Shown: one piece after another, positions 1 through 14,929 of the stretch
Position numbering within the stretch: position 1 is the stretch's first letter
Layout: every line of letters starts with the position of its first letter
From: an uncultured Nitrospiraceae bacterium
GTDB lineage: Bacteria > Nitrospirota > Thermodesulfovibrionia > UBA6902
Length of the DNA: 25,655 nucleotides
Assembly: GCA_964410825.1 (NCBI GenBank)
Contig: CAYPIT010000001.1
Coordinates: 1-25,655 of the forward strand
Direction of reading: 5' to 3'
Translations under genes and position numbers: made by a program
The notes under the pieces: generated by a model
Told to the model about the DNA's origin: nothing
What the model saw: only the letters and a program-made list of their open reading frames with translations
Databases searched by the model: none

Positions 1-1397
1 CCCGCTACGACAAGAAAGTCATATGTGTAATTATTCAAAGCATATCCGATTGAGAGTAAAACACCCGGCAAAAAAAGAATAAACCAGATCGGACCAAGCC
101 CGCCCAACCGTGAATCATACAGATAATATTGAACATTTTCGAGCCACACATAAAGAGGTCTCGTAATATACGACAATTTACTAATAATCTCGGGGGCAGG
201 CTCTACGATCCCTTTATACAGTCCCTCAAAAATAGTATTACCGAGAAAAGATATCTGCATCGGATATACCGGATTGTTATTTAGTGCCCAGTTTTTTAAG
301 TACCAGTAAGAACCTACCAGTAATAGAGGTGAGAGGAAATAAATAAAGAACATCTTCAGACTTTTTACAAGTTGGGAGTATGTGTCCTTATTGTCAGATT
401 TTAAAAAACTCCAGAGCTTTTTAGATTCCTGAACTACAAGAACAGAAGATACGATTCCCGCAAAAAGGGGGCCAGAACTCTTCGAGCCGAGCAGTATGCC
501 CGTTGACAGTCCGGCAAAAATGAGATAATACTTCCTCTGCTGAAGATGTTCAACTTCTCTTCTCATCTCACCGTTAGTCTCAAAGCTGTCTCTCATCAGG
601 AAATTAATTGCTATTAGAAACAAAACCGATATCGCGACATCAACATAGTTTGTTGTCGATTGCAGAATTATTATAGGTGTAAAGAAAAAAAGAAAAGAGG
701 AGTACAAAGCATATTTACTCTTTATTCCCACTTTTAAAGCTATGCTGTATATCGTTACAACACCAGTAAGGGTAAAAAAGAGCTGACTTAAATCTGTGAT
801 TACGTCATTCTGTAAAAAAATAATATTCCATAAAAAGAAAAGTTCGATGTTCTTTGGGAACATGTTAATCCACTGGTTAATAAAAGAATAATTTGGAACC
901 TCCTGTATAGCCCCGCTCTGCATGATATACCCTACAATCGGAAGGTGATACCACAGGGCGTCCCATGTATAGGAGGGAAACAGGTATCCAAGCATTATCA
1001 TCCAGCATGTCATCAATACCAGCAGACCAAACAAGCAGCATAATATAACGTCACCCTTTATCAATTTAAGTACATTGCCAATCTTATCTTTCCATTCATT
1101 GACGATTGAGGCAAAGAAAACCTGTTTATTTCCAGAATCAATTTTTTGCAAGCTGATAACTGTGATGATCAATATAACCGCTGATACAAATGTGTTCAGA
1201 GTGAACAGAGGGAAAACATAAAGTTTTTTAAAGGGAACACCAAGCAACAATGCTGATAATATTATCTGTGAAAGAGCCAGGACAGATGTTCCGATAATCC
1301 TGTCAACAAATGATATGAGCTTTCTTTTACGAAAGAGAAAGATATACCAGGAAGAAAATAAAAACAGGTTTACTATGATATAAGATAGGATATTCAA
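1..1397 (-). CDS. GT-C fold (PMT_2/ArnT-like) polytopic membrane glycosyltransferase, 3' end outside window
   Basis: Not in the ORF track because it runs off the edge. Read by hand: stop-free frame of 465 codons from TTG at 1397 to base 1. Many hydrophobic helices plus GT-C-type motifs: SYTWDALWYHLP (first-loop DxxxYH), NYVD, LLGSKSSG, WYLKNWALNNNPVYP. Confidence 0.75.
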   Translation of the reverse strand, partial: MNILSYIIVNLFLFSSWYIFLFRKRKLISFVDRIIGTSVLALSQIILSALLLGVPFKKLYVFPLFTLNTFVSAVILIITVISLQKIDSGNKQVFFASIVNEWKDKIGNVLKLIKGDVILCCLFGLLVLMTCWMIMLGYLFPSYTWDALWYHLPIVGYIMQSGAIQEVPNYSFINQWINMFPKNIELFFLWNIIFLQNDVITDLSQLFFTLTGVVTIYSIALKVGIKSKYALYSSFLFFFTPIIILQSTTNYVDVAISVLFLIAINFLMRDSFETNGEMRREVEHLQQRKYYLIFAGLSTGILLGSKSSGPLFAGIVSSVLVVQESKKLWSFLKSDNKDTYSQLVKSLKMFFIYFLSPLLLVGSYWYLKNWALNNNPVYPMQISFLGNTIFEGLYKGIVEPAPEIISKLSYITRPLYVWLENVQYYLYDSRLGGLGPIWFILFLPGVLLSIGYALNNYTYDFLVVA

Positions 1398-1993
1398 TCA
1401 ATCAAAACAGTTCCAGAATCGTCTGAAACTGCAGTCCGTCATTTGATGGTAATATTTATACTGCTCTTCTGCACGTTCCTTCATGCCAAGCTTTTCATAA
1501 ACCACAGCAATATCCCATAAAGCATATTTGTTAGAGGGATCAATTTCAAGCACCTGTTGATATTCTGATAATGCTGTTTTGAAAAGACCTTTCTCTTTAT
1601 ATATAAAACCGAGATCATAATGTGCAAATGCATTCTCCGGATTTATCTCTAATGCTTTACGGTACTGAACCAATGCTTTCTCATATTTTTTAGTTGCCCT
1701 ATATATATATCCCAGATCATAATTCGCATGAGGATGATCATGTTGCATCGTTAAGAGTTGTAAATATACACGCTCGGCTTTATCAAACAAACCCTTTCTT
1801 TTATATATTAATCCAAGTTGATAGTAAGAATATGCATCGTTAGCCTCGTAAAATGATTCAATTGCCTTATCTTCCAGTTGAATAGTCTGATATATAACTG
1901 CCAGAAGAGTATGGCGCTTAACGAAGATATAAAGAGATAGTATGATAATGGAAATACTTATCAGCAGGAATAGTATTTTTTTTTACTATTCAT
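1398..1993 (-). CDS. N-terminally membrane-anchored TPR protein (about 4 TPRs), out of frame at an A9 tract near its start
   Basis: The track ORF 1398..1790 holds TPRs (YDLGYIYRATKKYEKALVQYRKALEINPEN, etc.). The same frame stays open back to 1982 (KKILFLLISISIIILSLYIFVKRH...AYSYYQLGLIYKRKG) with no start codon. The ATG at 1993 (MNSKKK) joins it only if the A9 run (plus-strand T 1976-1984) is A10 or A7. Confidence 0.75.
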
Positions 1994-2068
1994 TTTACAG
2001 GATAAAAAATAGAGCAACAAAATATCTGGAAAAAGTTTTAATAATTTTCAAATTAAGTTTTTTTAGGT

Positions 2069-3052
2069 TTAGTGGATGTATACCATCGCCAGGCTAAATG
2101 TCTCGCCAAGTGCAAAATCCTCGGTCTTAAATTCTCCAAATCCAGGCAGTTCAGTGTTATAGGAAAGAACAACCTGCCATTTAGGGGCAACATTAAATGC
2201 CAGATCAATACCTGCGCTCAAGGCGTTCGGTTCCAGTACCAATGAATCTTTTATGATGACAATATCTTGCTGCCAGGACGCTCCGCCTCCGCCCCCATTA
2301 AATAATGTTTGAAGCTCTGGCGAAACTTTCGCATTTCCAACCGAATGTGTCCAGTCTACAAGCCCTCTTATAGACAGCCATGATGTGACAGAATACCCAC
2401 CGCCAAATGAAATTTTAATCTGGTCAGACGGTGTAAAATGATTGTTGTCGAGCTGGTCATTTTCAAACCTGAATTTATAACCCGTATCTAGCCATGCATA
2501 TCCTTTACCAAGACCCCGGCCAAATTTTAGTTTTAGTGTAGCGTCATACTGACCATCGCCCAAACTTAAATGCGTCACAGGACTCTCATAATCATATGCT
2601 TCAGGTATCTTCACCTCACCCTGAATAGACATTAGAACACCAGAACCCAGAATGTTGCCGATAAGGCTGTGCCTCAGACCGAGATTTATATCACCAACTC
2701 CACTCGGGCCTTGCTCAACTCCATATCTAATGTTATCATTAGATTTTTGCCAGTCCCATCCTATTCCGGTAAATATTGTGAGTTTATCGGTGATTCCGTA
2801 CTCCCCGTAATATGTAATTTTCGTGGACTGAAATTCTTCTGTATCAATTCTGTGTACAGGGGCCTTTAAACCAACAACCGCACCTGATGAATCTGTATCT
2901 AATGTAGTAAACTTTTGCGTAGTGTGGTAATTACTAAGGGTCAATTGATTATAGGAATGCCCCTTTGGCTGTGTCCAGGCTGAAAAAACATCATTTGATA
3001 TGAATAAACTCCCTGCTGATAAAATAGCTATAACCAAGAATCTTTTTACCAT
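2069..3052 (-). CDS. Exported hypothetical protein, probable outer-membrane beta-barrel
   Basis: Likely start is ATG 3052 (MVKRFLVIAIL), 7 nt after AGGAG. Signal-peptide-like N-terminus ending before AWTQPKG. Alternating hydrophobic/aromatic amphipathic strands throughout (e.g. YAWLDTGYKFR, WQVVLSYNTE, TFSLAMVYIH). Confidence 0.6.
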   Translation of the reverse strand: MVKRFLVIAILSAGSLFISNDVFSAWTQPKGHSYNQLTLSNYHTTQKFTTLDTDSSGAVVGLKAPVHRIDTEEFQSTKITYYGEYGITDKLTIFTGIGWDWQKSNDNIRYGVEQGPSGVGDINLGLRHSLIGNILGSGVLMSIQGEVKIPEAYDYESPVTHLSLGDGQYDATLKLKFGRGLGKGYAWLDTGYKFRFENDQLDNNHFTPSDQIKISFGGGYSVTSWLSIRGLVDWTHSVGNAKVSPELQTLFNGGGGGASWQQDIVIIKDSLVLEPNALSAGIDLAFNVAPKWQVVLSYNTELPGFGEFKTEDFALGETFSLAMVYIH

Positions 3053-3114
3053 CTTGCAACTCCTTTTGTTACCATGATTTATTATATAAATATTGATTTC
3101 CTGCATTATGCCGG

Positions 3115-4635
3115 CTATGCGGCAATTACATCTTCAGTATTTCTCTTGGATATAAAGATACGAGCAATGCGACTTGATGCTAAACTACTTAATATTACTT
3201 GAAAAAGTGACAAAAAAGCAATATAAAAAAATCCGACCTGAAAAATCATAAGAAAAGGGATCGAAACATAAATCTTATTAATAAAAGCAAAATAGATATT
3301 AAAAGTAAAATATACTCCAAGCAAAAATTCTATTATTACTGAAAGGTTTATTTTTACTCTGTATTTTTTCCCAAGCCATCTGTCATTTTTCTTCTCGATC
3401 ATATACTTAGGGGTACGTTTAAATTCTGTTTGGCTGTTAAACAGCGCTCCCAGTACCGCCTTTGAGTTATTAACAGAAAGTCCTATACCAATTGACATCA
3501 ACATCGGCAAATAGATCAACCTTGATTTCCAGTTACTGTATGCTTCTTTCTGTGAGCACAGATAAAAAAATGATATCCCCACAGTTGCAACCAGCAGGAA
3601 TGGTACGTCAGTCACTATCATCTGAAACCATCCAATGTTTATACGGGCAATCATTGACGGGTATATCAGAATCGAAAGCAGCAGCATAAGCAGATATGAA
3701 ACATTGTTGGTCAGATGAAAAAAGGCCTCCACTTTTACCTTCAAAGGCAGATCGCTTTTTAGAATTTGAGGAAGCAGTTTTTTTGCGGTCTGTATGGATC
3801 CCTTTGCCCATCTATGCTGCTGGCTTTTAAATCCATTAATTTCTACAGGAATTTCTGAAGGGGCAACTTCATCCTTTAAAAATATAAAGTTCCATCCCTT
3901 TAACTGTGACCTGTAACTCAAATCCAGATCTTCCGTAAGTGTATCATTCTGCCAGCCACCCGCAGTTTCGATAGCTTCCTTTCTCCAAATACCGGCAGTG
4001 CCATTAAAATTAAAAAATCGCCCTGACCAGTTTCTGGCTGCATGTTCCATGATAAAATGACCATCAAGCATAATCGCCTGTATTTTTGTTATCAACGAGT
4101 ATTTTCTGTTCAAATAAGTCCATCTCGTCTGAACCATGCCTATTGATTTATCCGCAAAATAATGGATCGTATTATTTAAGATATCTCTTTGCGGGACAAA
4201 ATCTGCGTCAAAAACCGCTATGAACTCACCCTTAGCTACTTTCAATCCGTCTGACAACGCTCCACCCTTAAACCCTTCCCTCTTAACGCGGTGGATGTGA
4301 TTTATGTCAAATCCTTTTTCTTTAAACTCTCCAACACACTTTTTTGCAACATTGACCGTATTATCCGTAGAGTCATCCAGCACCTGGATGTCAAGGAGTT
4401 CTCTGGGGTAATCAATATTGCAGGATGCTGTTATTAAGCGCCTCACTACATACATTTCATTGTAGAGTGGAAGTTGAATGGTTATGCGGGGCAGTTCAGA
4501 TAATCTTTTTCCAAGCTTCGGTTTGTTCCTGCGGTGCTTATAGTAGAGATAAACCATATAATACCGGTGTGAAGCGTAGATGAAGACCGCTATCAAGATA
4601 CAGAAATATACTATCAAAAAAAGATAAAGCAGCAT
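3115..4635 (-). CDS. Processive GT2 glycosyltransferase (cellulose synthase-like/CslA-like), membrane bound
   Basis: D, DxD, TED and QxxRW motifs: LDDSTD, FKGGAL, FDADF, TLTEDLDLS, QQHRWAKG. One N-terminal and several C-terminal TM helices. No room for a PilZ domain. Confidence 0.9.
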   Translation of the reverse strand: MLLYLFLIVYFCILIAVFIYASHRYYMVYLYYKHRRNKPKLGKRLSELPRITIQLPLYNEMYVVRRLITASCNIDYPRELLDIQVLDDSTDNTVNVAKKCVGEFKEKGFDINHIHRVKREGFKGGALSDGLKVAKGEFIAVFDADFVPQRDILNNTIHYFADKSIGMVQTRWTYLNRKYSLITKIQAIMLDGHFIMEHAARNWSGRFFNFNGTAGIWRKEAIETAGGWQNDTLTEDLDLSYRSQLKGWNFIFLKDEVAPSEIPVEINGFKSQQHRWAKGSIQTAKKLLPQILKSDLPLKVKVEAFFHLTNNVSYLLMLLLSILIYPSMIARINIGWFQMIVTDVPFLLVATVGISFFYLCSQKEAYSNWKSRLIYLPMLMSIGIGLSVNNSKAVLGALFNSQTEFKRTPKYMIEKKNDRWLGKKYRVKINLSVIIEFLLGVYFTFNIYFAFINKIYVSIPFLMIFQVGFFYIAFLSLFQVILSSLASSRIARIFISKRNTEDVIAA

Positions 4636-4876: not shown

Positions 4877-5194
4877 ATGAACGATTCCGCTCCAAATCAC
4901 CAGTCAAATTGGACAAACATACTTAAAGCGCTCGCTGATGAAAGCCGCCTGAAGATAATACACGAGCTTCTAAAAAAGGAATTGTCAGTACAGGACTTAT
5001 CGGATATTCTCGGCATAAAAATATATAACATGTCGAGACATCTTAAAGTTCTCGAGGCAACCGGGCTGGTTCAAAAAAGGAAAGATGGTGTTCAGAGATT
5101 TTACGATATCACCAATGATTTCAAGTCTCGATTTTCGGACGACAACCAAGTGTTGGATTTGGGGTGTTGCAAGTTTATATTTGAGGATCTGTAA
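4877..5194 (+). CDS. ArsR/SmtB family transcriptional repressor with C-terminal Cys-Cys
   Basis: LKALADESRLKII...ELSVQDLSDILG...NMSRHLKVLEATGLV...RKDG..RFY is the ArsR winged HTH. The only cysteines are C97-C98 in LDLGCC. Confidence 0.92.
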   Translation: MNDSAPNHQSNWTNILKALADESRLKIIHELLKKELSVQDLSDILGIKIYNMSRHLKVLEATGLVQKRKDGVQRFYDITNDFKSRFSDDNQVLDLGCCKFIFEDL

Positions 5195-5242: not shown

Positions 5243-5593
5243 TTATTCTTCATCAACCGGAAGGCCATATGCTGTCCATTCATCAATTCCACCTTCATAA
5301 ACCTTAACGTTTTTAATATTCAGTGATTGCAAACCAACAGCAACCTTCTTGGAAGCCTTGCAGTCCCTATGCTTACAATATATGATGATTTCGTCAAACA
5401 ATATTAAGTCTCTTCTTTTGTCGATTACCTCAGGATATGGAATTGTTTTCGCCCCTTTAATTTTTGATCTATTCCCATCATATTTGCCAATTGTATCAAC
5501 CAGCACAAAATTGGACTTTCCATTAATTCGGTTTAATAGCTCATCTTTATCTACACATTCTAAAGTTGTATTGAAATCTATTTTATAGGACAT
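5243..5593 (-). CDS. Single-domain rhodanese-like sulfurtransferase
   Basis: LVD...IKGAKTIP...IIIYCKHRDCKAS...VKVYEGGIDEW...GLPV matches the rhodanese fold with an active-site Cys. Strong RBS AAGGAGG upstream. Confidence 0.9.
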   Translation of the reverse strand: MSYKIDFNTTLECVDKDELLNRINGKSNFVLVDTIGKYDGNRSKIKGAKTIPYPEVIDKRRDLILFDEIIIYCKHRDCKASKKVAVGLQSLNIKNVKVYEGGIDEWTAYGLPVDEE

Positions 5594-5731
5594 TTACTCC
5601 TCCTTTGATATTTCTTTGAACATAGCATGGGAAAATAAACTCAGTCAATGGACACATTTTTTTTAGCAGCTCAAATATATTAATAACGCATTCGGCTTTA
5701 TTTATAATAATTATTTAGTTAAATTAAAATC

Positions 5732-8700
5732 ATGGCAAAACAGTCCAAAAGATTCGCAATGTTAGTCAACATTGACAGATGTGTTGGATGCTATGCGTGC
5801 CAGGTATCCTGCAAAGCAGAATATAATATCCCATTCGGGACCTTTCGATGCAAAGTTGAAACATATCATTCAGGCATCTACCCTCATAATAATAAGTTTT
5901 TTTTGCCTCGTCTTTGTAACCACTGCGAAAATGCTCCCTGTATAGAATCATGTGATGAAACAGCCTTGTTTAAAAATGATGACGGTATAGTTTTACTTGA
6001 TCACGATAAATGTACAGGCTGTCAGCAATGCTATGACAAATGCCCATATAATGCAATCGATATAAGACCGATCACTGGACAAGTTGAAAAATGCGACTTC
6101 TGTTACAGCAGAAGACTACTGAAAGGGCTTTTACCGGTATGTGTGCAGAGCTGTATGGGAAAGGCTATTACATTCGGCGATATAAATGACCCAAAGAGTG
6201 AGATAGTCTCCGTACTTGAACATTGCGATATCAAAGTCCTTAATCCTGAACTTAATGCTAATCCTTCTGTTTTTTATGTCTATAAAAGTGATTCATTGAA
6301 CTCCCCATTAAGAGATCACAAAATTACAATTAAAAGTTCAACTAAAAGTGCATCGACAGAACCGGCTGTCTCGCTTAATGAAGACTCTGCAAAAATTATA
6401 TATTCATCCTGTGCAATGTGTCCATCAGAATGCGGTATAGCAGTGGCAGTAGAAAACGGTTTTGCAAAAAAAATATATGGAAACCCTCACTCTTTAATAA
6501 ATAACGGAACATTATGCGCTAAGGGTGCCTCAGGGTTACAGCTTACTTACTCACCTTACAGAATCAAAACCCCTTTAATGAGGATCGGCAAGCGAGGTGA
6601 GGACAGATGGAAAGAAATAACCTGGGATGAGGCTTCCAAGCATATTGCTGTCAAGTTAATTGAAATTAAGAAAGCGCATGGCCCGGAATCTGTCTTCCTG
6701 AACTGCGGCGACGTTACTGACAGAGAAGCATATTACAGACTGTTTCATGCCTTTGGCACCCCAAATACATTTGATCATGGGAGTATCTGTGATCCCAATC
6801 GCAGATGGGGTCACGGTATTATGACTGGAGATGAAAGACCGCTACCTGATATACAGAGACCTTGTCTGTTAAGAAATAGTGAAGGAGAAATTCACTTGTA
6901 CAAAAACCATGATATCAAGCTTCTTCTGAACATCGGGGTTAATCCGCTCGTTGCAGCAAGATTCAATTACATGTCCAGTGGCATACCTGGAGCCAGAGAG
7001 GAAAATAAATGTAAATACATAGTCATTGATCCGTCCTTTACAAATTCTGCATCTCATGCGGATATCTGGCTTCCAATAAAACCTGGAACAGATGCCGCTC
7101 TGCTTGCATCCATGCTTTATCATATTATCTGTAATGATTCTCCGGATAATGCATCTCAAGGTTATATAGATCATGATTTTCTCAGAGATTATACGACTGG
7201 CTGGCAGGAATTCAAAGGCGCGTTTCTTTCGTATACTGACAAAAAAGACCCTTCGAATGAATTTAATTTTTTCACACCTGAGTGGGCAGAAAATATAACC
7301 GGGATTTCCGCTAATAATATAAAAAATATATCTCACCTGTTTGGCATAACAAAGCCTGCCGCTATCGAAATTGGAATGCACGGCACTGCCCACCACAGCA
7401 ACGGTGATGTCACATCAATACTCATGACAACCCTCTGCCTCATAACAGGTAACATGGATATTCCTGGAGGTTTGGTTTTTATAGACTCCCAAAAGGCAAA
7501 AAAAGGGGATTTCGTTGCAGGGAAGAAATTCCTCGAGAAAGTGACTAACAAAAAAGTAAACGGCTCAGATATACAAGGGAAACATTCAGAATTGCATAAA
7601 GACCTGTATGGTGATTTTCCGGCAGCATGGAGAGGCGTATTGGCTGATCTTCCCATGAAAATCAGAAAAGGGATTACGTTGAAACATGGCCCATTTAAAA
7701 ATTATAAATATCCGGTCAGGGCATTTATATCGAGAGCAGGCAATCCTGTCATGACAGCCGGAAACAGCCACGACTGGGTTAATGCGGTTACGGCCATGGA
7801 TAAAAACGGTGAATATACTCTCGATTTGATGGTCTTTATCGATACTCATATAACAGAGACCGGCAAATATGCGGATATAGTTCTTCCGGAGGCTGGTTAT
7901 TTAGAGCGAATCGGACTTAGTGATGTGTATACAATGAGTCCTGAAATAGCCATAAGAGACCAGGTTATCAAACCGCTTCATGGATCAAAAACCCCATTTG
8001 AAATAATGACCGTACTGGCTAATGCTCTTGTCAACAATGGTGACTCTGATATCAGACCTGAAGATTTCGAAAAATATATAAACGAAGAAGAGTTTATCAA
8101 TGACCTACTTAGAGAATCACCCGGATTTTATAATATCGGTTCACCACTTCCATATCCCGACCTTCCTGAAGGATGTTTAATAACAGGCATACCGGACAAT
8201 ACAACAGCAACCTGGGGTAACACAATTATAAAGAAAGGAGAACCTTTGACTGTTGATTGGCTGCGGAAAAATAACGGGGTAGCGGTCTGGCCTTCAAGTT
8301 ATTACCGTTACAAAAAAAAGGATGGTTCGCCATCCGGTGTTTATCCTAAAACCGGGTCAAAGAAGTTTGAATTTAAGTTCGGTTACCTTGCAAAAATCAA
8401 CTCACGCCTGGGGACAAATTTCCCTTCTACCTTCTATTGGTCAGAATCCAAATGGAGCCATGGAAACGAATCATTTAATGACGCTGTCAAAGAATATCCT
8501 TTTCAACTTATTAGCGGCAGAGCTCATTATGCAATGACTATGACCGGAATCTGCCCATACCTTGCAGAGACTAACACAGAATGTATGCAGCCATTAAACA
8601 ATGAATTTCAGCATATTGTACCGGAAGTTAAAAACATTCCTGAAGAATACGGGATTTCGGCGGGTAAGATTACATTCAAGTCAGGAACTGTTTCAATTCC

Positions 8701-9007
8701 TGTGCTTGCACTTAATAAAACGGATGGTGATCATCTGAATTTAAAGACAGGAGACATTATTATTCTCGAAAACCCTTTGAAAAACAGAATGCAGGGCAAG
8801 GTCTTTTTAACCGAAGATGTAATGCCGGGAGTTATAAAAACCGCCTTTGGGCCTGGGGGTCAAAAGGCGTCCGGTGCAGGTTTGTTAAATCATACTTCAT
8901 TTTATACACAAAATATTAACAGGCTCTTCAACACCAAAAACCTTTCCCCTTTTACCGGGATGCCGGGATTCGGAGACATTATAGTAAAGATTATTAAACA
9001 CAACTAA
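5732..9007 (+). CDS. Fused 4x[4Fe-4S] electron-transfer domain + Mo/W-bisPGD oxidoreductase catalytic domain (Psr/Phs/Soe-like clade of the DMSO reductase family)
   Basis: Residues about 1-184: CVGCYACQVSC, LCNHCENAPCIESC, CTGCQQCYDKC, KCDFC...CVQSC (PsrB/NrfC/DmsB type). Then a Ser/Thr/Lys linker, SCAMCPSECG...LCAKG (FS0 cluster), GTPNTFDHGSIC (putative Cys353 Mo ligand), IDPSFTNSASHADIWLPIKPGTD, ADIVLPEAGYLER and C-terminal YPFQLISGR. No twin-arginine leader. Confidence 0.9.
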   Translation: MAKQSKRFAMLVNIDRCVGCYACQVSCKAEYNIPFGTFRCKVETYHSGIYPHNNKFFLPRLCNHCENAPCIESCDETALFKNDDGIVLLDHDKCTGCQQCYDKCPYNAIDIRPITGQVEKCDFCYSRRLLKGLLPVCVQSCMGKAITFGDINDPKSEIVSVLEHCDIKVLNPELNANPSVFYVYKSDSLNSPLRDHKITIKSSTKSASTEPAVSLNEDSAKIIYSSCAMCPSECGIAVAVENGFAKKIYGNPHSLINNGTLCAKGASGLQLTYSPYRIKTPLMRIGKRGEDRWKEITWDEASKHIAVKLIEIKKAHGPESVFLNCGDVTDREAYYRLFHAFGTPNTFDHGSICDPNRRWGHGIMTGDERPLPDIQRPCLLRNSEGEIHLYKNHDIKLLLNIGVNPLVAARFNYMSSGIPGAREENKCKYIVIDPSFTNSASHADIWLPIKPGTDAALLASMLYHIICNDSPDNASQGYIDHDFLRDYTTGWQEFKGAFLSYTDKKDPSNEFNFFTPEWAENITGISANNIKNISHLFGITKPAAIEIGMHGTAHHSNGDVTSILMTTLCLITGNMDIPGGLVFIDSQKAKKGDFVAGKKFLEKVTNKKVNGSDIQGKHSELHKDLYGDFPAAWRGVLADLPMKIRKGITLKHGPFKNYKYPVRAFISRAGNPVMTAGNSHDWVNAVTAMDKNGEYTLDLMVFIDTHITETGKYADIVLPEAGYLERIGLSDVYTMSPEIAIRDQVIKPLHGSKTPFEIMTVLANALVNNGDSDIRPEDFEKYINEEEFINDLLRESPGFYNIGSPLPYPDLPEGCLITGIPDNTTATWGNTIIKKGEPLTVDWLRKNNGVAVWPSSYYRYKKKDGSPSGVYPKTGSKKFEFKFGYLAKINSRLGTNFPSTFYWSESKWSHGNESFNDAVKEYPFQLISGRAHYAMTMTGICPYLAETNTECMQPLNNEFQHIVPEVKNIPEEYGISAGKITFKSGTVSIPVLALNKTDGDHLNLKTGDIIILENPLKNRMQGKVFLTEDVMPGVIKTAFGPGGQKASGAGLLNHTSFYTQNINRLFNTKNLSPFTGMPGFGDIIVKIIKHN

Positions 9008-9196: not shown

Positions 9197-10273
9197 ATGA
9201 AAAAAACTTCTGAATTGCAGAAACTCCGATCTAAAATCGACAAGATCGACCTGAAGATAGTTGAACTGCTAAATGAGAGGGCACAGATAGTCCTGGAAGT
9301 GGGCAGGGCTAAACAGAGCAACCGGCTGAAGATTCATTCCCAGGTAAGAGAAAAAGCGATATTGCGCAAACTTCAGGAGAGTAATACAGGACCTTTCCCT
9401 AATGAAGCACTGAAACTGATTTATGAAGAAATCCTGTCAGCTTCGGTCGCTCTCCAGCAACCTTTAAAGATTGCCTATCTGGGACCGTCTGCAACCTTCA
9501 CACATTTTGCAGCGAGACGAAAATTCGGGTCATCTTCGGAGTACCTGCCGGAAAGCACGATAAAAGAAGTTTTTGAGGCGGTTTTCAGGAACAAGGTAAA
9601 TTACGGAGTAGTGCCTATCGAAAACTCTACAGAAGGTGTAGTCAACTACACTCTCGATATGTTTATGGATTCAGATTTAATGATCTCATCCGAAATTGTG
9701 CTTGAAATATCGCATAACTTACTGTCAAAGTTGGGGCAAAAAGCAAGTGTCCGGAAAATTTACTCACATCCTCAGGCAAAGGCGCAGTGTCGAAGCTGGC
9801 TCGAGAGAAATTTTCCGGGTGTGCAGATTATTGATGAGATCAGTACAGCTGCCGCCGCAAAGCGCGCATCAAGGTCTCCTGATTCTGCGGCTGTCGCCAG
9901 TGAATTGGCGGCCTCCGTATACGGCCTGAAGATTATTGAAAAAAGCATCGAAGACAACAAGAAAAACGTTACAAGATTTATGGTAATTGCAAAGGAATCA
10001 CCTGGCAAAACAGGAAAAGATAAGACATCAATAATGTTCACCATTAAAGACAAGCCCGGTGCGCTGTTCTTGATTTTACGTCCCTTTTCAAGGCATAAAA
10101 TAAATCTTACAAAAATCGAGTCAAGACCTTCAAAAAGAAAGGCATGGGAATATATGTTCTTTGTGGATATGGAAGGGCATATTGATGATAAAAACGTCAT
10201 GAAGGCGATAAAGGATGTTCAAAAGGAGTGCCTGTTTTTTAAAGTGCTCGGTTCATACCCTTCGGCAGAATAA
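9197..10273 (+). CDS. pheA: Bifunctional chorismate mutase/prephenate dehydratase (P-protein) with ACT domain
   Basis: LRSKIDKIDLKIVELLNERA (CM type II), IAYLGPSATFT, VPIENSTEG, NVTRFMVI, NLTKIESRP, WEYMFFVD. Confidence 0.97.
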   Translation: MKKTSELQKLRSKIDKIDLKIVELLNERAQIVLEVGRAKQSNRLKIHSQVREKAILRKLQESNTGPFPNEALKLIYEEILSASVALQQPLKIAYLGPSATFTHFAARRKFGSSSEYLPESTIKEVFEAVFRNKVNYGVVPIENSTEGVVNYTLDMFMDSDLMISSEIVLEISHNLLSKLGQKASVRKIYSHPQAKAQCRSWLERNFPGVQIIDEISTAAAAKRASRSPDSAAVASELAASVYGLKIIEKSIEDNKKNVTRFMVIAKESPGKTGKDKTSIMFTIKDKPGALFLILRPFSRHKINLTKIESRPSKRKAWEYMFFVDMEGHIDDKNVMKAIKDVQKECLFFKVLGSYPSAE

Positions 10274-10320
10274 ATGAATAAGGATTCAAGGGGTCTAGGC
10301 TCGAACCCTTCAGTTTTTAT

Positions 10321-11403
10321 ATGATTAAAGCACCGAACCACATAAGCGAAATTAAACCTTACATCCCCGGAATGCCGATTGAAGAGCTTGAAAGAGAACT
10401 CGGAATTAGCGGTTCTGTCAAGCTGGCTTCCAATGAAAACCCTGTCGGCCCGTCACCTCTTGCGATCAGGGCTCTGCGCAAAGAGATTGGTGAATTAAAC
10501 AGATATCCTGATGGAAACTGTCATTATCTGAGAAATGCTTTGTCCGACAAGCTAAACATCCGGCGTGATCAACTGATATTCGGCAACGGCTCAAATGAGA
10601 TTATCGAACTGGCTGTCAGAACGTTTCTCAGTCCAGGTGACGAAGCGATAATGGCGCATCCTTCTTTTGTAGTGTATTCAACTATTGTGCAGGCTGTAAA
10701 AGGAAAAAGTATTATTGTCCCGCTCAAAGACTGGCGCCATGACCTTAACGCAATGGCCGCTAAAATTACTGACAAGACCAGACTGATCTTTATAGCAAAT
10801 CCAAATAATCCTACCGGCACTATTAACACTCAAGATGAAATAGATTCATTTATGAAGCAGGTCCCTGATGACATACTGGTGATTATTGATGAAGCATATT
10901 ATGAGTATGTTGTTTCTCCTGATTATCCGCAGAGCATAAATTACCTGAAACATAACAGGGATATTTTAATACTTAGAACGTTTTCCAAAATTTGTGGGCT
11001 TGCAGGTCTTAGAATCGGATATGGAATCACCACAAACTTGATAAGCACCGAAATGAATAAAGTTCGCCAGCCTTTTAATGTAAACTTCCTTGCCCAGACA
11101 GCCGCCCTTGCAGCGTTGAATGACGATAATCATCTGGAAAAATCAAGAAAAATAAACGAAAGAGGCAAGAACTACCTTTATAAAGAACTTAAAAAATTAG
11201 GCCTGAGGTATATACCGACAGAAGCAAATTTCATATTTATACCTTTTAAAAACAAAATATCTGCTGAATTGTACAGTTCTCTATTAAATAAAGGAATTAT
11301 TATCAGACCTATGGGACCTGAAGCAGCACGAGTTACTATAGGAACGCCAAAGGAAAATAAATTATTGATCGAAGCATTGAGAAAATCAATCGTAAGTTTA
11401 TGA
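10321..11403 (+). CDS. hisC: Histidinol-phosphate/aromatic aminotransferase (PLP class II)
   Basis: KLASNENP, NRYPD, GNGSNEII, NPNNPTG, IDEAYYEY, RTFSKICGLAGLRIGY. Confidence 0.95.
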   Translation: MIKAPNHISEIKPYIPGMPIEELERELGISGSVKLASNENPVGPSPLAIRALRKEIGELNRYPDGNCHYLRNALSDKLNIRRDQLIFGNGSNEIIELAVRTFLSPGDEAIMAHPSFVVYSTIVQAVKGKSIIVPLKDWRHDLNAMAAKITDKTRLIFIANPNNPTGTINTQDEIDSFMKQVPDDILVIIDEAYYEYVVSPDYPQSINYLKHNRDILILRTFSKICGLAGLRIGYGITTNLISTEMNKVRQPFNVNFLAQTAALAALNDDNHLEKSRKINERGKNYLYKELKKLGLRYIPTEANFIFIPFKNKISAELYSSLLNKGIIIRPMGPEAARVTIGTPKENKLLIEALRKSIVSL

Positions 11404-11428
11404 AGATTGGAGGACAGTTTAACTCGTC

Positions 11429-12283
11429 ATGGATTTCAAACATGTAGCTATCATAGGCGTTGGACTTATCGGAAGTTCAGTCGCCCTTTCATTAAAGAAA
11501 GCAGGTTTCAATGGGAAAATATCTGGAATAGGAAGAAAGGAAGAAAATTTAGCCAGGGCCGGGGAACTCGGAATAATCGATTCGTTCACAACTTCACATG
11601 CTGAAGGTGTGAGAAATGCTGACCTCATTATACTGGCTTCTTCTGTACAGCATTTTAAACAGATTATAACAGACATAAAGGATGAGCTTAAAGAGGGTGC
11701 AATTGTAACAGATGTAGGAAGTGTTAAAGCAGAGATTGTAAATCAACTTGAACTTATTATGCCTGATGGAGTAAGTTTTGTAGCCGGCCACCCCATAGCA
11801 GGAAAAGAATATTCCGGCATAAACGCTGCATCTCCTGATCTTTTCAATAATGCAAAATGCGTAATCACTCCCACTGCAAACACAGATAAAAAGGCGCTGG
11901 AGAAAATCCGTGACTTCTGGGAATTTATAGGAACCGGCACAATAGTGATGAGCCCGGAAGAACATGACTCTATTTTTGCAGCGGTAAGCCACCTTCCTCA
12001 TATAGCGGCATACGCCCTGATTAATGCAATTAATGACGTTAACAAAGATATGTTACAGTTCAGCGGCAAGGGATTAAAAGATATGACGCGGATCGCTCTA
12101 AGTCCTACATCGCTTTGGCGGGATATATGCAGCTATAACAGGAAAGATATTATCCTGTCACTGAAAAGCTTCTCATCTTCGATCTCTCGAATGATACAAT
12201 TTTTTGAAGAATCAGACTGGGAGGGTCTGGAAAAAGAATTCAAAAGGGCTAACGAGGCAAGACAGCTCATTGAATCAGATTAA
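11429..12283 (+). CDS. tyrA: Prephenate/arogenate dehydrogenase
   Basis: IIGVGLIGSS Rossmann motif, TDVGSVK, FVAGHPIAGKE, HDSIFAAVSHLPH, DMTRIA. Confidence 0.95.
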   Translation: MDFKHVAIIGVGLIGSSVALSLKKAGFNGKISGIGRKEENLARAGELGIIDSFTTSHAEGVRNADLIILASSVQHFKQIITDIKDELKEGAIVTDVGSVKAEIVNQLELIMPDGVSFVAGHPIAGKEYSGINAASPDLFNNAKCVITPTANTDKKALEKIRDFWEFIGTGTIVMSPEEHDSIFAAVSHLPHIAAYALINAINDVNKDMLQFSGKGLKDMTRIALSPTSLWRDICSYNRKDIILSLKSFSSSISRMIQFFEESDWEGLEKEFKRANEARQLIESD

Positions 12284-13580
12284 TATAAAATACAGGGGCT
12301 CTCTCCGCGGAGAAATTATCTCCCCTCCAGACAAATCAATTTCCCATCGTGCAATAATGCTTTCATCCCTCGCTAATGGGAAAAGTATTATAAATAATTT
12401 CCTGCGCGCAGAAGATCCCATGAGAACTATCGAGGCCTTAAGGCAGATGGAAATCGAAATAGAGTTCAGAGTTAAGAGTAAGGAGTTAAGAGAGCGGTCC
12501 AACGAAATAATAATTAAGGGCAAAGGATTGACCGGACTTAAAGAACCTGCCGGCACAATAGACTGTGGGAACTCGGGAACAACAATGAGGCTTTTGAGCG
12601 GAGTACTCGCAGGACAGCCATTTTCTTCACAGTTAACCGGAGACTCGTCGTTAAAAAGCAGGCCCATGCAAAGGATAATAACACCACTCTCACAGATGGG
12701 AGCAATTATCAGCTCTGAAAGAGATGGCTATCCACCTCTTAAAATAAAAGGTGGTTCTTTGCGGCCTATCAGTTACAGTTCTCCTGTTGCTAGCGCACAG
12801 GTTAAATCAGCAATACTCCTGGCAGGGCTTTATTGTGACGGTATAACAAGAGTTATTGAACCCGGAAAATCAAGGGATCATACTGAAAGAATGCTAATGG
12901 CATGCGGTGCAGACATTAATGTAGAGAATTCTACTGTTACCGTCAGAGGGATGGAACCTCTGAATCCTATAGATGTCACAATCCCGGGTGATCTCTCATC
13001 AGCTGCATATTTCATAGTAGCGGGATTGTTAGTACCTGAATCAGAAATATTGATCAGGGACACTGGTATAAATTCTACAAGAACAGGAGTAATAGACATT
13101 TTAAAAATGATGGGTGCAGACTTAAGGCTGGAGAACATGAGGGACGTATCAGGAGAACCTGTTGCAGACATATTTGTTAAATATTCAAAGCTTAAAGGTA
13201 TAGATATCAAAACTGATGAAATTCTGAGAGCGATTGATGAATTTCCCATAATATGTATAGCAGCCTCCTGTGCCGAAGGTGTTACCAGAATTACCGGTGA
13301 TAGAGAGCTGCGGGTGAAGGAGTCGGACAGGATAGCATCTATGGCTTCAGAATTAATGAAAATGGGAGTAGCGGTCGAGGAACTTGAAGATGGTCTTGTC
13401 ATTGAAGGCACGGACGAACTGCAGGCTGCATCTGTTAACAGTCATGGAGACCACAGAATTGCGATGTCTCTGGCTATAGCAGGGCTTACGGCCAAAGGAC
13501 AGATAACTATATCAGACACGGACTGTGTAAACACATCCTTCCCAGAATTTATGGCTTTGATAGAAGGTCTTCAGCATTGA
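12270..13580 (+). CDS. aroA: 3-phosphoshikimate 1-carboxyvinyltransferase (EPSP synthase, class II)
   Basis: PDKSISHRA, DCGNSGTTMRL, RPMQRI, SAQVKSA, RDHTERML, LRVKESDRI, HGDHRIAM. Start moved from 12204 to the in-frame TTG at 12270, which overlaps the tyrA end; the exact start is uncertain. Confidence 0.95.
   Translation: MNQINIKYRGSLRGEIISPPDKSISHRAIMLSSLANGKSIINNFLRAEDPMRTIEALRQMEIEIEFRVKSKELRERSNEIIIKGKGLTGLKEPAGTIDCGNSGTTMRLLSGVLAGQPFSSQLTGDSSLKSRPMQRIITPLSQMGAIISSERDGYPPLKIKGGSLRPISYSSPVASAQVKSAILLAGLYCDGITRVIEPGKSRDHTERMLMACGADINVENSTVTVRGMEPLNPIDVTIPGDLSSAAYFIVAGLLVPESEILIRDTGINSTRTGVIDILKMMGADLRLENMRDVSGEPVADIFVKYSKLKGIDIKTDEILRAIDEFPIICIAASCAEGVTRITGDRELRVKESDRIASMASELMKMGVAVEELEDGLVIEGTDELQAASVNSHGDHRIAMSLAIAGLTAKGQITISDTDCVNTSFPEFMALIEGLQH
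12461..12495 (+). repeat. Imperfect heptamer tandem repeat inside aroA
   Basis: agagttc-agagtta-agagtaa-ggagtta-agagagc, five 7-nt units. Confidence 0.7.
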
Positions 13581-14221
13581 AAAATGTTATAACCATCGAC
13601 GGCCCATGCGGTGCAGGGAAAGGGACAGTTGCAAAGGCCCTTGCAAAAAAACTCGGCTACAATTATCTGGACACAGGCGCACTATACAGGGCAATTGCCT
13701 GGAAGGCAAGGAAAGAAAAAATCAGTCCCGACAATATAAGTTCCATAAAAATAATGATCGAAAACACAGATATCAGGATTACTAATGACAGAATTACAGT
13801 CGATAATGTAGATGTGACATCTGAGATAAGGACCAATGAAATTGGTGAATTAAGTTCCAGGGTCTCTGCGCTGCCGGTCGTCCGGAAAAGACTTTTCAAT
13901 ATTCAAAAAGAAATATGTCTTAAGGGCAATGTAGTGATTGAAGGCAGGGATATCGGTACAACGATTTTCCCTGATGCCGAAAACAAATTTTTCCTTGACG
14001 CAAGCCTTGAAGAAAGAGCCAGGAGGAGATATGAGGAGCTAAAAACCCATTCCCCTGATATTACGATTAAATCTACAATGGAAGATATAAGGAAACGTGA
14101 TTTGAGAGATTCTTCGCGCAAGACCGCTCCGTTAAAAATAACAGATGATATGATTCAGATTGATTCAACTAAAATGAGTATAAAAGAGGTTGTATTGACA
14201 ATCATCAAAAATTTAAAGTAA
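13577..14221 (+). CDS. cmk: Cytidylate kinase
   Basis: ITIDGPCGAGKGT P-loop, YLDTGALYRA, VIEGRDIGT, FPDAE, FFLDASLEERARRR. The TTG start overlaps the aroA TGA. Confidence 0.96.
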   Translation: MKNVITIDGPCGAGKGTVAKALAKKLGYNYLDTGALYRAIAWKARKEKISPDNISSIKIMIENTDIRITNDRITVDNVDVTSEIRTNEIGELSSRVSALPVVRKRLFNIQKEICLKGNVVIEGRDIGTTIFPDAENKFFLDASLEERARRRYEELKTHSPDITIKSTMEDIRKRDLRDSSRKTAPLKITDDMIQIDSTKMSIKEVVLTIIKNLK

Positions 14222-14281
14222 TGCCTTAACAGTCAGCAGCATTTTCCATTGTTAACAAGTTTAAAGTTTTTATGATAGAAA

Positions 14282-14929
14282 ATGGATTCAATTTATATTT
14301 TTACATATAAGCTGGTTGCTTTCACAATAAGATTAATTCTTCGTTTTAACGGCGGTCTTGATACTAAAGGAAAAGATAACGTGCCGGCTGAAGGTGGAGT
14401 AATAATAGCGGCAAATCATATAAGCTATTTAGACCCGCCTTTGTTAGGCTCGGTGCTTCCCCGGGTAGCGACTTTTATGGCAAGAAGGGGTCTTTTTGAT
14501 GTCCCGGTACTTGGATGGATGATAAAACGTGCCGCTTTTCCGGTTGACAGAGAAAAACCGCGCCCGTCAACAATCAAAGATGCTGTAAGGCGGCTTAAAA
14601 AGGGTGAACTCATCGTAATGTTCCCTGAAGGCGGAAGAAATGAAACAGGTCAACTGCAAGAAGCCAAGCGCGGAGTAGGAATGATAGCCAGTATTAGCAA
14701 TGTGCCTATAGTCCCGGCTCTTATTATCGGAACTGACAAAGCATTGCCAGTTGATGCTAAGTGGCTAAAAAGAAACAAAATATTAGTGATATTCGGCAAG
14801 CCGATATACCACAAATCATTAACAGAAAATGAAGATTCACCACCCCATCTGAAACACGATAAAGTTAGCGACAATGTCATGTCAGCCATAAAAAAGCTTC
14901 AAAAAAAATATGCAGAAAAAAAACGATGA
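14282..14929 (+). CDS. plsC: 1-acyl-sn-glycerol-3-phosphate acyltransferase
   Basis: NHISYLDP (HX4D), FPVDR, FPEGGR, VPIVP. Confidence 0.92.
   Translation: MDSIYIFTYKLVAFTIRLILRFNGGLDTKGKDNVPAEGGVIIAANHISYLDPPLLGSVLPRVATFMARRGLFDVPVLGWMIKRAAFPVDREKPRPSTIKDAVRRLKKGELIVMFPEGGRNETGQLQEAKRGVGMIASISNVPIVPALIIGTDKALPVDAKWLKRNKILVIFGKPIYHKSLTENEDSPPHLKHDKVSDNVMSAIKKLQKKYAEKKR

What the first reader, a model, noticed from the sequence alone, without database searches (positions are those of the whole stretch)
5732..6412. Unusual B-before-A fusion: four-cluster Fe-S domain replaces the Tat leader
Seen: the Fe-S domain (residues about 1-184) is joined by a roughly 36-residue Ser/Thr/Lys-rich linker (about 6284-6390) to the FS0-bearing catalytic domain (C227), in one uninterrupted frame. 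Known: the familiar fusion, ActB of alternative complex III, has the opposite order and lacks Mo binding. Here the FS0 cysteines, the putative Mo-ligand Cys and the C-terminal cofactor-binding domain all look intact. Inference: a single-chain wire of five Fe-S clusters to Mo that must use a soluble electron partner such as ferredoxin.
Basis: partly seen in the sequence, partly recalled or inferred. Interest (0 to 1): 0.6.

Follow-up and report, generated by a model that had tools for sequence, protein, structure and literature searches.

The report
Cytoplasmic single-chain iron-sulfur molybdoenzyme
One gene in an uncultured sulfate-reducing Nitrospirota bacterium joins the electron-wire subunit and the catalytic subunit of a polysulfide-reductase-like molybdenum enzyme into a single cytoplasmic protein; the fusion is real and present in every sampled genome of three related families, but its substrate is untested.

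Summary
Window 5732-9007 (+) is one uninterrupted 1091-codon ORF. It has a PsrB-type four-cluster domain (residues 1-184, 16 Cys), a variable linker (185-220), and a complete Mo/W-bisPGD catalytic domain (FS0 C227/C230/C234/C262, Mo-ligand C353, Molydop_binding 990-1080). There is no Tat motif and no membrane segment.

It is not an assembly artefact. The fused form occurs in all 61 other sampled genomes of three families of the window's order, including closed genomes. It forms one clade, sister to a Tat-exported family encoded as separate B then A genes 11-13 nt apart, some in the same frame with one stop codon between them. The fusion therefore most likely arose once, by stop loss and decay of the Tat leader.

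AlphaFold gives pLDDT 91 and pTM 0.92; only residues 203-217 are disordered. The nearest solved structures are PsrAB and ArrAB, but every equivalog cut-off and every signature motif tested is missed, so the substrate is unknown. The "soluble ferredoxin partner" idea is untested. Relatives place an amino-acid-type ABC module directly upstream of the enzyme or fuse it to the enzyme.

The architecture is not unique: unrelated B-A fusions exist in other phyla. This scan flagged the same family before on other genomes. No paper found describes it.

The parts
5732..9007 (+). Whole fused gene (1091 aa): B domain, linker and Mo/W-bisPGD catalytic domain
   Evidence: Uninterrupted ORF. Pfam domains. 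Full-length homologues at 58-89% identity.
5732..6283 (+). PsrB/TtrB-type four-cluster domain, residues 1-184, with 16 Cys for four [4Fe-4S] clusters; starts 16 residues before the first Cys, with no signal peptide
   Evidence: (2vpw_B, E 3e-40). All 16 Cys are conserved in the 50 fused homologues, apart from one incomplete row.
6284..6391 (+). Inter-domain linker, residues 185-220. In homologues it is 35-61 aa long and only 21% identical, against 64-71% for the domains
6338..6382 (+). The only disordered stretch of the model, residues 203-217 (pLDDT under 50)
6392..6553 (+). Molybdop_Fe4S4 domain carrying FS0 (C227, C230, C234, C262). Position 227 is Asp in most relatives
6560..8023 (+). Molybdopterin oxidoreductase domain, residues 277-764
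   Evidence: Foldseek best matches are ArrA and PsrA.
6788..6790 (+). Codon of Cys353, the predicted Mo/W ligand, within the motif HGSICDPNRR
   Evidence: Aligned to PsrA chain position 173 and to the ArrA Cys. Invariant in 50 of 50.
8024..8698 (+). Family-specific insertion, residues 765-989, between the Molybdopterin and Molydop_binding domains. It holds two Cys (C941, C951) that are invariant in the fused clade and absent from the split sister clade
   Evidence: Modelled with high confidence.
8699..8971 (+). Molydop_binding domain, residues 990-1080
5594..5731 (.). 138-bp AT-rich divergent spacer with a promoter-like site at 5680-5708 (+)
   Evidence: This is a consensus match only, and the number of such sites does not exceed the shuffles.
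4877..5194 (+). ArsR/SmtB-family regulator. It lacks the alpha-3 CxC site and has a conserved C-terminal LDLGCC motif. It is the most frequent neighbour of the fused gene
   Evidence: Present in 26 of 43 fused loci with enough upstream flank, with the motif conserved.
5243..5593 (-). Single-domain rhodanese with a two-Cys loop (C73-KHRD-C78); an accessory neighbour
   Evidence: Present in 17 of 43 loci and not detected in the 89%-identical relative L016.

Best explanation
The gene encodes a cytoplasmic, single-chain member of the Psr/Phs/Arr branch of the Mo/W-bisPGD oxidoreductases. The four-cluster electron-transfer subunit (B) is fused to the N-terminus of the catalytic subunit (A). The fusion arose once, at the base of three related families of Thermodesulfovibrionia (probably GTDB order UBA6902, which is an inference). 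Its source was a Tat-exported enzyme encoded by adjacent B then A genes. The B stop codon was lost, and the Tat leader of A decayed into a variable linker of about 40 residues, which left the enzyme in the cytoplasm. Inferred mechanism: electrons enter at the distal cluster of the B domain from a cytoplasmic or membrane-associated donor that is not yet identified. They pass through four [4Fe-4S] clusters and FS0 to the Cys353-ligated Mo/W centre, where a substrate is reduced. The substrate is unknown. My estimates are: an inorganic sulfane or thiosulfonate sulfur species (polysulfide, persulfide, thiosulfate) about 0.4; an imported sulfur-containing amino-acid derivative about 0.25; a metalloid oxyanion about 0.2. 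The confidence figure refers to the architecture, location and origin, not to the substrate.
For: Architecture. Real and under selection: the 16 B-domain Cys, C230/C234/C262 and C353 are conserved in the 50 fused homologues, while the linker varies in length (35-61 aa) and sequence (21% identity) yet always stays in frame. Closed genomes CP070632, CP070644 and CP070788 carry it. Distribution: found in 49/49, 5/5 and 7/7 genomes of three families of the order; in the genomes of other orders searched, only unfused A-type or B-type matches were seen. Origin: the fused clade is monophyletic (SH-aLRT 98) and sister to the split clade (100), and the two together have support of 100. All split A subunits examined carry a Tat leader. 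The gap from the B stop to the A start codon is 11-13 nt in most pairs, and 6 of 20 pairs are in the same frame with a single stop between them. Of 390 positions conserved in the fused clade, 237 are identical in the split clade. Fold: pLDDT 91.2 and pTM 0.92, with only residues 203-217 disordered. The best structural matches are ArrA and PsrA, and the best sequence matches are PsrB and PsrA of entry 2vpw. Cytoplasmic location: no Tat motif or membrane helix, no TorD-type chaperone found in the genome, and in relatives the enzyme follows the last helix of an ABC permease. Sulfur context: the host has dsrA and aprA, a rhodanese lies next to the gene in 17 of 43 loci, and rhodanese-to-Psr sulfur delivery is established for Wolinella Sud and Aquifex SbdP (from the literature, cited in PMC12998232).
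Against: No biochemical or expression data exist for any member. All NCBIfam equivalog cut-offs are missed: PhsA 264 of 694, ArrA 156 of 1600, TtrA 102 of 1750, TtrB 184 of 416. The residues aligned with PsrA chain positions 145 and 332, and with the ArrA (R/K)GRY motif, are not conserved. The rhodanese is missing from most loci and was not detected in the closest relative. The regulator is of the ArsR type. The direction of catalysis is not determined.
Confidence: 0.75

Rival explanations
1. It is a transport-coupled reductase. The enzyme works with an amino-acid-type ABC module that has no adjacent binding-protein gene, and it reduces an imported amino-acid derivative such as S-sulfocysteine, a cystine polysulfide or a sulfoxide, rather than free polysulfide.
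For: In 10 of 43 fused loci a permease pair lies directly upstream, and in one subclade the second permease is fused in frame, giving proteins of about 1360 aa. Loci L035, L049 and L050 read ATPase-permease-permease-BA. The permeases belong to the polar-amino-acid family, matching GlnP, cystine and Ehu permease models. The window's own genome keeps the same ATPase-permease-permease trio, 60% identical, unlinked on contig C46.
Against: In this window, and in most loci, no transporter is adjacent. No binding protein was seen beside the module. A Cys-ligated Mo centre is typical of sulfur, arsenate, nitrate and formate chemistry rather than of S-oxide reduction (established knowledge). The specific substrates named are speculation.
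Confidence: 0.25
2. It is a cytoplasmic metalloid oxyanion reductase (arsenate, selenite, tellurite or antimonate) controlled by the ArsR-type regulator.
For: ArsR is the most conserved neighbour, in 26 of 43 loci, and its C-terminal vicinal Cys pair is conserved. That pair resembles the C-terminal As(III) sites of some ArsR proteins (from memory). ArrA is the top structural match. The split sister family is flanked by a PhnD-like binding protein plus a histidine kinase and response regulator, as in the Aio, Arx and Ttr systems, and by ArsP in Geobacter sp. SVR.
Against: The ArrA (R/K)GRY motif is absent and the ArrA model scores 156 of 1600. Many ArsR-family proteins do not sense metals. The gene is present in every sampled genome of the three families and is syntenic beside housekeeping genes, which is unusual for a resistance determinant.
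Confidence: 0.2
3. It works in the oxidative direction, as a cytoplasmic dehydrogenase (for example of sulfite, sulfide or arsenite, like SoeAB or Arx) that passes electrons outward through the B domain.
For: Cytoplasmic orientation is shared with SoeABC (established knowledge). A TauE-type sulfite exporter lies nearby in a few relatives. Mo-bisPGD enzymes of this branch are often reversible.
Against: TauE occurs in only 2 of 43 loci. No NrfD-type quinone-reducing partner is free in the genome. No SoeA-specific evidence was obtained.
Confidence: 0.15
4. It is a non-catalytic electron-transfer module that has lost the cofactor, like ActB or QrcB.
For: A weak QrcB model match of 105 bits.
Against: Cys353 is invariant. 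The Molydop_binding domain is present. 390 positions are conserved at 90% or more. The fold matches active enzymes.
Confidence: 0.03
5. It is an assembly or frameshift artefact that joins two separate genes.
For: The window is a 25.7-kb contig from a 295-contig metagenome-assembled genome.
Against: The same uninterrupted fusion is found in about 50 independent assemblies, including three closed chromosomes.
Confidence: 0.01

Closest known systems
Uncharacterised Tat-exported split family encoded B then A (plus a TorD-like gene, often a PhnD-like binding protein with kinase and regulator, and NrfD in Bacillota); examples are Geobacter sp. SVR WP_173201954.1 and Desulfosporosinus metallidurans
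   Same: It is the sister clade. The A subunit is 42-49% identical and the B subunit 36-47%. It has the same B-before-A order, the same D/C-x-MCPSECG FS0 motif and HGSICD Mo-ligand motif, and the same insertion of about 200 aa.
   Different: It is encoded as two genes. Its A subunit has a canonical Tat leader, so the enzyme is periplasmic, and a TorD-like chaperone gene follows. It lacks the C941/C951 pair. It is also uncharacterised.
Polysulfide reductase PsrABC of Thermus thermophilus (PDB 2VPW) and thiosulfate reductase PhsABC
   Same: These are the best sequence matches among solved structures for both domains and the best NCBIfam A-domain model. They share the fold (TMt 0.78), a Cys-ligated Mo centre and four [4Fe-4S] clusters plus FS0.
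   Different: Psr and Phs are three separate subunits, with a Tat-exported A subunit and an NrfD-type membrane anchor. PhsA scores 264 against a cut-off of 694. The residues at PsrA chain positions 145 and 332 are not conserved.
Respiratory arsenate reductase ArrAB of Shewanella sp. ANA-3 (PDB 6CZ7)
   Same: It is the top Foldseek match and shares the H-x-S-[IV]-C Mo-ligand motif.
   Different: The (R/K)GRY arsenate-binding motif is absent. The model scores 156 against a cut-off of 1600. Arr is periplasmic and has two subunits.
ActB of alternative complex III (PDB 6F0K chain B)
   Same: A single chain that contains both a molybdopterin-like module and a four-cluster module.
   Different: The order is opposite, with the Fe-S module at residues 797-910. 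ActB has no Mo cofactor (established knowledge). Here the Mo ligand and the cofactor domain are intact.
NAD-dependent and related formate dehydrogenases with N-terminal Fe-S domains (FdsA, ForC/YjgC; for example PDB 6TG9, 8RQZ); also the FDH-like Fe-S plus Mo proteins found 'fused or split' in Lost City MAGs (PMC9469722)
   Same: Cytoplasmic single chains with Fe-S domains N-terminal to the Mo domain. They show that such fusions recur.
   Different: In my understanding, the N-terminal modules of the solved enzymes are of the NuoG or ferredoxin type rather than the PsrB/DmsB four-cluster (Fer4_11) subunit; I did not test this. The catalytic domain belongs to a different branch.
Cytoplasmic Psr-like enzymes and PsrBC fusions of green sulfur bacteria and Marine Group A (PMC3906813)
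   Same: Psr-like A subunits without a Tat signal, the psrBCA gene order, and a rhodanese gene nearby.
   Different: In those systems the fusion is B with C (the anchor), not B with A, and A remains a separate protein.

Membership tests
Mo/W-bisPGD (DMSO reductase) superfamily, catalytic subunit | Molybdop_Fe4S4, Molybdopterin and Molydop_binding domains | tested here: met
   All three score above the Pfam gathering scores.
Mo/W-bisPGD (DMSO reductase) superfamily, catalytic subunit | A protein ligand to the metal at the conserved position | tested here: met
   C353 aligns with PsrA chain position 173 and the ArrA Cys. It is invariant in 50 of 50.
Mo/W-bisPGD (DMSO reductase) superfamily, catalytic subunit | Four-domain fold around the cofactor | tested here: met
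   AF2 pLDDT 91, pTM 0.92. Foldseek E 1e-41 or better to ArrA and PsrA, with TMt 0.75-0.78.
Mo/W-bisPGD (DMSO reductase) superfamily, catalytic subunit | Bound Mo or W bis-pyranopterin guanine dinucleotide | not testable with these tools
   This needs metal and cofactor analysis of the purified protein.
Four-cluster proteins (PsrB/DmsB/NrfC/TtrB type) | Four Cys groups giving 16 ligands, and the Fer4_11 fold | tested here: met
   2vpw_B matches at E 3e-40 over residues 7-184. The Cys are conserved across the fused family.
Polysulfide/thiosulfate reductase PsrABC/PhsABC | NCBIfam PhsA equivalog score of at least 694 | tested here: not met
   264 bits.
Polysulfide/thiosulfate reductase PsrABC/PhsABC | Tat leader on A and an NrfD-type anchor (PsrC) | tested here: not met
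   No RR motif. There is no NrfD gene in the window. The two NrfD genes of the genome each sit beside their own B-type gene. The genome is 91% complete.
Polysulfide/thiosulfate reductase PsrABC/PhsABC | Active-site His145 and Arg332 of Thermus PsrA (their catalytic role is recalled from memory) | tested here: not met
   These positions align with Gly and Ala in the query. The alignment is at low identity.
Respiratory arsenate reductase ArrAB | ArrA equivalog score of at least 1600 and the (R/K)GRY motif | tested here: not met
   156 bits. The motif position reads NCGDVTD.
Tetrathionate reductase TtrABC | TtrA score of at least 1750 and TtrB score of at least 416 | tested here: not met
   102 and 184 bits. 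A separate TtrA-like gene (463 bits) with its own B gene lies on contig C8.
ActB of alternative complex III | A-like module first, Fe-S module last, and no Mo cofactor | tested here: not met
   The order is reversed, and the Mo ligand is conserved.
MOLY cluster (MolyA, MolyB and a TorD-like MolyC; PMC9676032, PMC12998232) | Separate A and B genes with an adjacent TorD/DmsD chaperone, and an exported enzyme | tested here: not met
   The protein is fused and has no Tat motif. No Nitrate_red_del family match was found in the genome.
MOLY cluster (MolyA, MolyB and a TorD-like MolyC; PMC9676032, PMC12998232) | Membership of MolyA orthogroup 1 | tested here: inconclusive
   The family motifs MCPSECG and SICDPN were not found in the 200 held supplement files. 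The paper reports an 'isolated molyA' in Thermodesulfovibrionaceae that I could not map to this gene.
Uncharacterised fused B-A family of Thermodesulfovibrionia | Full-length match at 58% identity or more, and placement inside the monophyletic fused clade | tested here: met

The most novel reading that the evidence does not exclude
The fused enzyme and the ABC module (ATPase plus two permeases, with no adjacent binding-protein gene) form one functional unit in all members, including this organism, where the two are unlinked. This would be a transport-coupled cytoplasmic reductase that cleaves an imported organic or inorganic S-S or S-SO3 compound (for example S-sulfocysteine or thiosulfate) and feeds sulfite and sulfide directly to the Dsr pathway. 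It would be a mode of sulfur respiration or assimilation with a new kind of membrane tether for a complex iron-sulfur molybdoenzyme.
Probability: 0.15. Interest if true: 0.75.

Novelty: new variant of a known kind. Interest (0 to 1): 0.45.

Why it matters
Complex iron-sulfur molybdoenzymes of the Psr/Phs/Arr/Ttr branch are usually described as exported A plus B dimers attached to a membrane anchor. Here an entire group of subsurface and sediment sulfate reducers carries a version of that machinery moved to the cytoplasm as one chain. The likely route of origin can still be seen in living relatives, where the two genes are separated by a single in-frame stop codon. The gene is present in every sampled genome of three families, so it probably has a central, still unknown role in their sulfur or metalloid metabolism. 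A single polypeptide carrying five Fe-S clusters and Mo/W would also be convenient for heterologous expression and for electrochemistry.

Tried and rejected
1. A diverse A-domain alignment (A1) was too divergent to seed the genome-contig scan. I replaced it with alignment A2.
2. I tested whether the ArsR is a BigR/SqrR-type persulfide sensor. I rejected this because its only Cys residues are the vicinal pair C97-C98 and the BigR model scores 49 against a cut-off of 155.
3. I tested whether the fused permease is PhnE-like, which would match the PhnD-like binding proteins of the split family. I rejected this because it belongs to the polar-amino-acid family.
4. I looked for a link to the MOLY cluster. 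The family motifs are absent from the held supplement files, and the one MolyA seed sequence shown reads CCMCTGRCP at FS0 with no Tat leader. No link was shown.
5. I looked for a more specific name for the PhnD-like binding protein, such as AioX or a TtrS-like protein. Only the generic phosphate/phosphonate family matched.
6. The model coordinates are not exposed to the script machine, so the FS0-FS1 distance was not computed.
7. The inverted repeat after the stop codon is not significant (z = -1.2), and the number of promoter-like sites does not exceed the shuffles.
8. Six literature searches found no paper describing this fusion.
Full report
**Observation**

Window 5732-9007 (+) is a single 1091-codon ORF with no stop or frameshift. 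Pfam finds Fer4_11 at 56-150, Molybdop_Fe4S4 at 221-274, Molybdopterin at 277-764 and Molydop_binding at 990-1080.

The N-terminal 184 residues carry four complete Cys groups, 16 Cys in all. They match Thermus PsrB (2vpw_B) at E 3e-40 over residues 7-184. Residues 185-220 form a Ser/Lys/Thr-rich linker. FS0 is C227/C230/C234/C262.

C353, in the motif HGSICDPNRR, aligns with the cysteine at chain position 173 of Thermus PsrA and with the Cys of the ArrA HSSVC motif. That these are the Mo ligands is from memory of the published structures. There is no twin-arginine motif and no hydrophobic helix. The first Cys is at residue 17, which leaves no room for a signal peptide.

**Is it real?**

A search of 5.8 billion proteins returned more than 120 clusters of homologues at 58-89% identity, most of them full-length and nearly all from Nitrospirota or Thermodesulfovibrionia MAGs.

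A scan of species-representative genomes returned about 50 loci with the same uninterrupted fusion. They include the closed chromosomes CP070632, CP070644 and CP070788.

Across 50 fused homologues the 16 B-domain Cys, C230, C234, C262 and C353 are conserved. The linker varies from 35 to 61 residues and is only 21% identical to the window's, against 64-71% for the domains, yet it is always in frame. That pattern indicates a selected fusion, not an assembly artefact. Two loci (L040, L051) have a stop or a frameshift, but inside the B domain rather than at the junction.

**Distribution**

I searched 300 other genomes of the class. The fused form was found in 49/49, 5/5 and 7/7 genomes of three families of the window's order. 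It was not found in the two single genomes of two further families of that order. In the genomes of other orders searched, only unfused A-type matches (42-49% identity) or B-type matches were seen.

MAG UBA6902 is among the carriers (L022). The order is therefore probably GTDB UBA6902; this is an inference. The family sampled as f14, which has small and complete genomes, scored 0/15.

A few carriers are labelled Deferribacteres, Desulfobacteraceae or Nitrospira japonica, but they fall inside the Nitrospirota clade in the tree. These are likely labelling or binning errors.

**Origin**

In the exhaustive search of 50%-identity representatives the whole family collapses into one cluster. The nearest unfused relative is a 948-aa A subunit, 45% identical, with a 41-residue leader. 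It is represented by Geobacter sp. SVR WP_173201954.1.

This sister family occurs in many phyla: Desulfosporosinus, Desulfurivibrio, Dissulfurispiraceae, Methylomirabilis, Symbiobacteriaceae, Actinomycetota, Acidobacteriota, Chloroflexota and others. In all of them the gene order is B then A. All of the A subunits examined carry a canonical Tat leader, SRRxFLKY. Where neighbours were examined, a TorD-like gene follows, and a PhnD-like binding protein with a kinase and a regulator lies nearby. In Desulfosporosinus an NrfD gene lies between B and A.

The gap from the B stop codon to the A start codon is 11-13 nt in most pairs. In 6 of 20 pairs, all of them fetched from genomes of this class or labelled Nitrospirota, the two ORFs are in the same frame with exactly one stop codon between them.

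In a maximum-likelihood tree of A domains the fused sequences form one clade (SH-aLRT 98). It is sister to the split clade (100), and the two together are supported at 100.

The simplest history is a single stop-codon loss in a B-then-A operon. The internalised Tat leader then decayed into the linker, which left the enzyme in the cytoplasm.

**Structure**

AlphaFold2, run with a 62-sequence alignment, gives a mean pLDDT of 91.2 and a pTM of 0.92. The high pTM means the B and A domains are placed confidently relative to each other. Only residues 203-217 fall below pLDDT 50. Residues 185-202 are ordered, with a strand at 193-195.

The best Foldseek matches are ArrA (6cz7_A) and PsrA (2vpw_A). 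No solved single chain covers both domains; TMq is at most 0.57. Model coordinates could not be read, so inter-cluster distances were not measured.

**What it is not**

All NCBIfam equivalog cut-offs are missed by wide margins: PhsA 264 of 694, ArrA 156 of 1600, TtrA 102 of 1750, TtrB 184 of 416.

The ArrA (R/K)GRY motif is replaced by NCGDVTD. The residues aligned with PsrA chain positions 145 and 332 are Gly and Ala.

The genome has a separate TtrA-like gene with its own B gene on contig C8.

ActB has the reverse order.

The MOLY cluster proposed for sulfur disproportionation has separate subunits plus a TorD-like chaperone (PMC9676032, PMC12998232). This genome shows no TorD-family match. 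The family motifs were not found in that paper's held supplement files.

**Context and function**

The host has dsrA and aprA. Its only two NrfD genes each sit beside their own B-type gene.

I examined 43 fused loci with at least 2.5 kb of upstream sequence. The ArsR-type regulator is present in 26, always with the C-terminal LDLGCC motif. The two-Cys rhodanese is present in 17. It was not detected in the 89%-identical relative L016. An amino-acid-type permease pair is present in 10, and TauE in 2.

In L035, L049 and L050 the operon reads ABC ATPase, permease, permease, B-A. In one subclade the second permease is fused in frame to B-A, giving proteins of about 1360 aa.

The window's genome keeps the same ATPase-permease-permease trio, 60% identical, unlinked on contig C46.

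These facts support a cytoplasmic location. They also weaken the claim that the partner "must" be a soluble ferredoxin, because the electron donor is simply unknown.

The fused and split clades share the motifs around the Mo ligand. Of 390 positions conserved in the fused clade, 237 are identical in the split clade. The fused clade has in addition two invariant Cys, C941 and C951.

I rank the substrates as follows: an inorganic sulfane or thiosulfonate sulfur species first, an imported sulfur-containing amino-acid derivative second, and a metalloid oxyanion third. None of these has been tested.

**Novelty**

The architecture is not unique. Unrelated Tat-less B-A fusions (25-31% identity) occur in Dehalococcoidia, Myxococcales and other lineages. 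ESM Atlas holds several clusters of 50-90 members that combine Fer4_11 and Molybdopterin. A Lost City study noted FDH-like Fe-S plus Mo proteins that are "fused or split" (PMC9469722). Psr-like enzymes without a Tat signal and PsrBC fusions are already described (PMC3906813).

No paper found describes this family. This scan has flagged the same family at least seven times on other genomes, with similar conclusions. My results were obtained before I read those notes, and they agree.

**Verdict**

The protein is a real, conserved and uncharacterised variant of a known enzyme kind.

Noticed in passing
window 6410-6412 (codon 227); L016-L099: The first FS0 ligand is Cys here (TGT) but Asp (GAY) in 47 of 50 fused homologues and in most split relatives. 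Cys appears in a few separate lineages, and the change between Asp and Cys needs two nucleotide substitutions. Counting every locus examined (fused and split), 71 carry a GAY codon and 6 a TGY codon. A D-x2-C-x3-C...C FS0 motif is not, to my knowledge, the usual form in this enzyme branch.
   Followed up: partly
L013:8001-12092 (P0117); L045, L054, L056, L059, L060: One subclade carries a triple fusion of about 1360 aa: a polar-amino-acid-type ABC permease, the B domain and the A domain. It is preceded by a second permease gene. In L035, L049 and L050 the same parts are unfused and read ATPase-permease-permease-BA. No binding-protein gene lies beside them.
   Followed up: partly
G000 contig C46 (L101:3802-6093): The window's own genome has the orthologous ABC ATPase and two permeases, 60% identical to the permease domain that is fused in relatives. 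They are unlinked from the Mo enzyme and have no adjacent binding protein.
   Followed up: partly
L065, L067, L094, L095, L097, L098 (first pair): In the split relatives fetched from genomes of this class or labelled Nitrospirota, the B and A genes are in the same reading frame, 12 nt apart, with a single TAG or TAA stop between them. This is a one-substitution route to fusion.
   Followed up: yes
window 4877-5194: The ArsR-family regulator has no alpha-3 CxC site. Its C-terminal LDLGCCKF motif is conserved in 26 of the 27 ArsR copies recovered beside the fused gene. The inducer is unknown.
   Followed up: partly
window 5243-5593: The rhodanese has a conserved two-Cys loop, Y-C-K-[HE]-[KR]-x-C-x-A-S-K-K. 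Its weak best NCBIfam match is a rhodanese-related (seleno)protein family.
   Followed up: partly
window residues 941 and 951 (nt 8552-8554, 8582-8584): Two Cys in the motif MTMTxxCPYLAETxTEC are invariant in the fused clade and absent from the split sister clade. They could form a redox or sulfur-relay pair.
   Followed up: no
G000 contig C8 (L100:36-5880): A sigma-54 response regulator gene is followed by a TtrB-like gene (258 aa) and a TtrA-like gene (1067 aa, 463 bits to the TtrA model). This is a second B-then-A pair in the same genome.
   Followed up: partly
G000 contigs C57 and C209: There are two dsrA/dsrB copies in a MAG with 5.4% estimated contamination. They could be paralogues or a binning mixture.
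   Followed up: no
L040, L051: Two members of the fused family are interrupted inside the B domain, one by a stop and one by a frameshift. These could be pseudogenes or sequencing errors.
   Followed up: no
window 1-4635 and 9197-14929: The gene keeps the same flanks in relatives at 59-89% identity: a GT2 glycan locus upstream and the pheA-hisC-tyrA-aroA-cmk-plsC genes downstream. It is an old resident of this position, not a recent insertion.
   Followed up: partly
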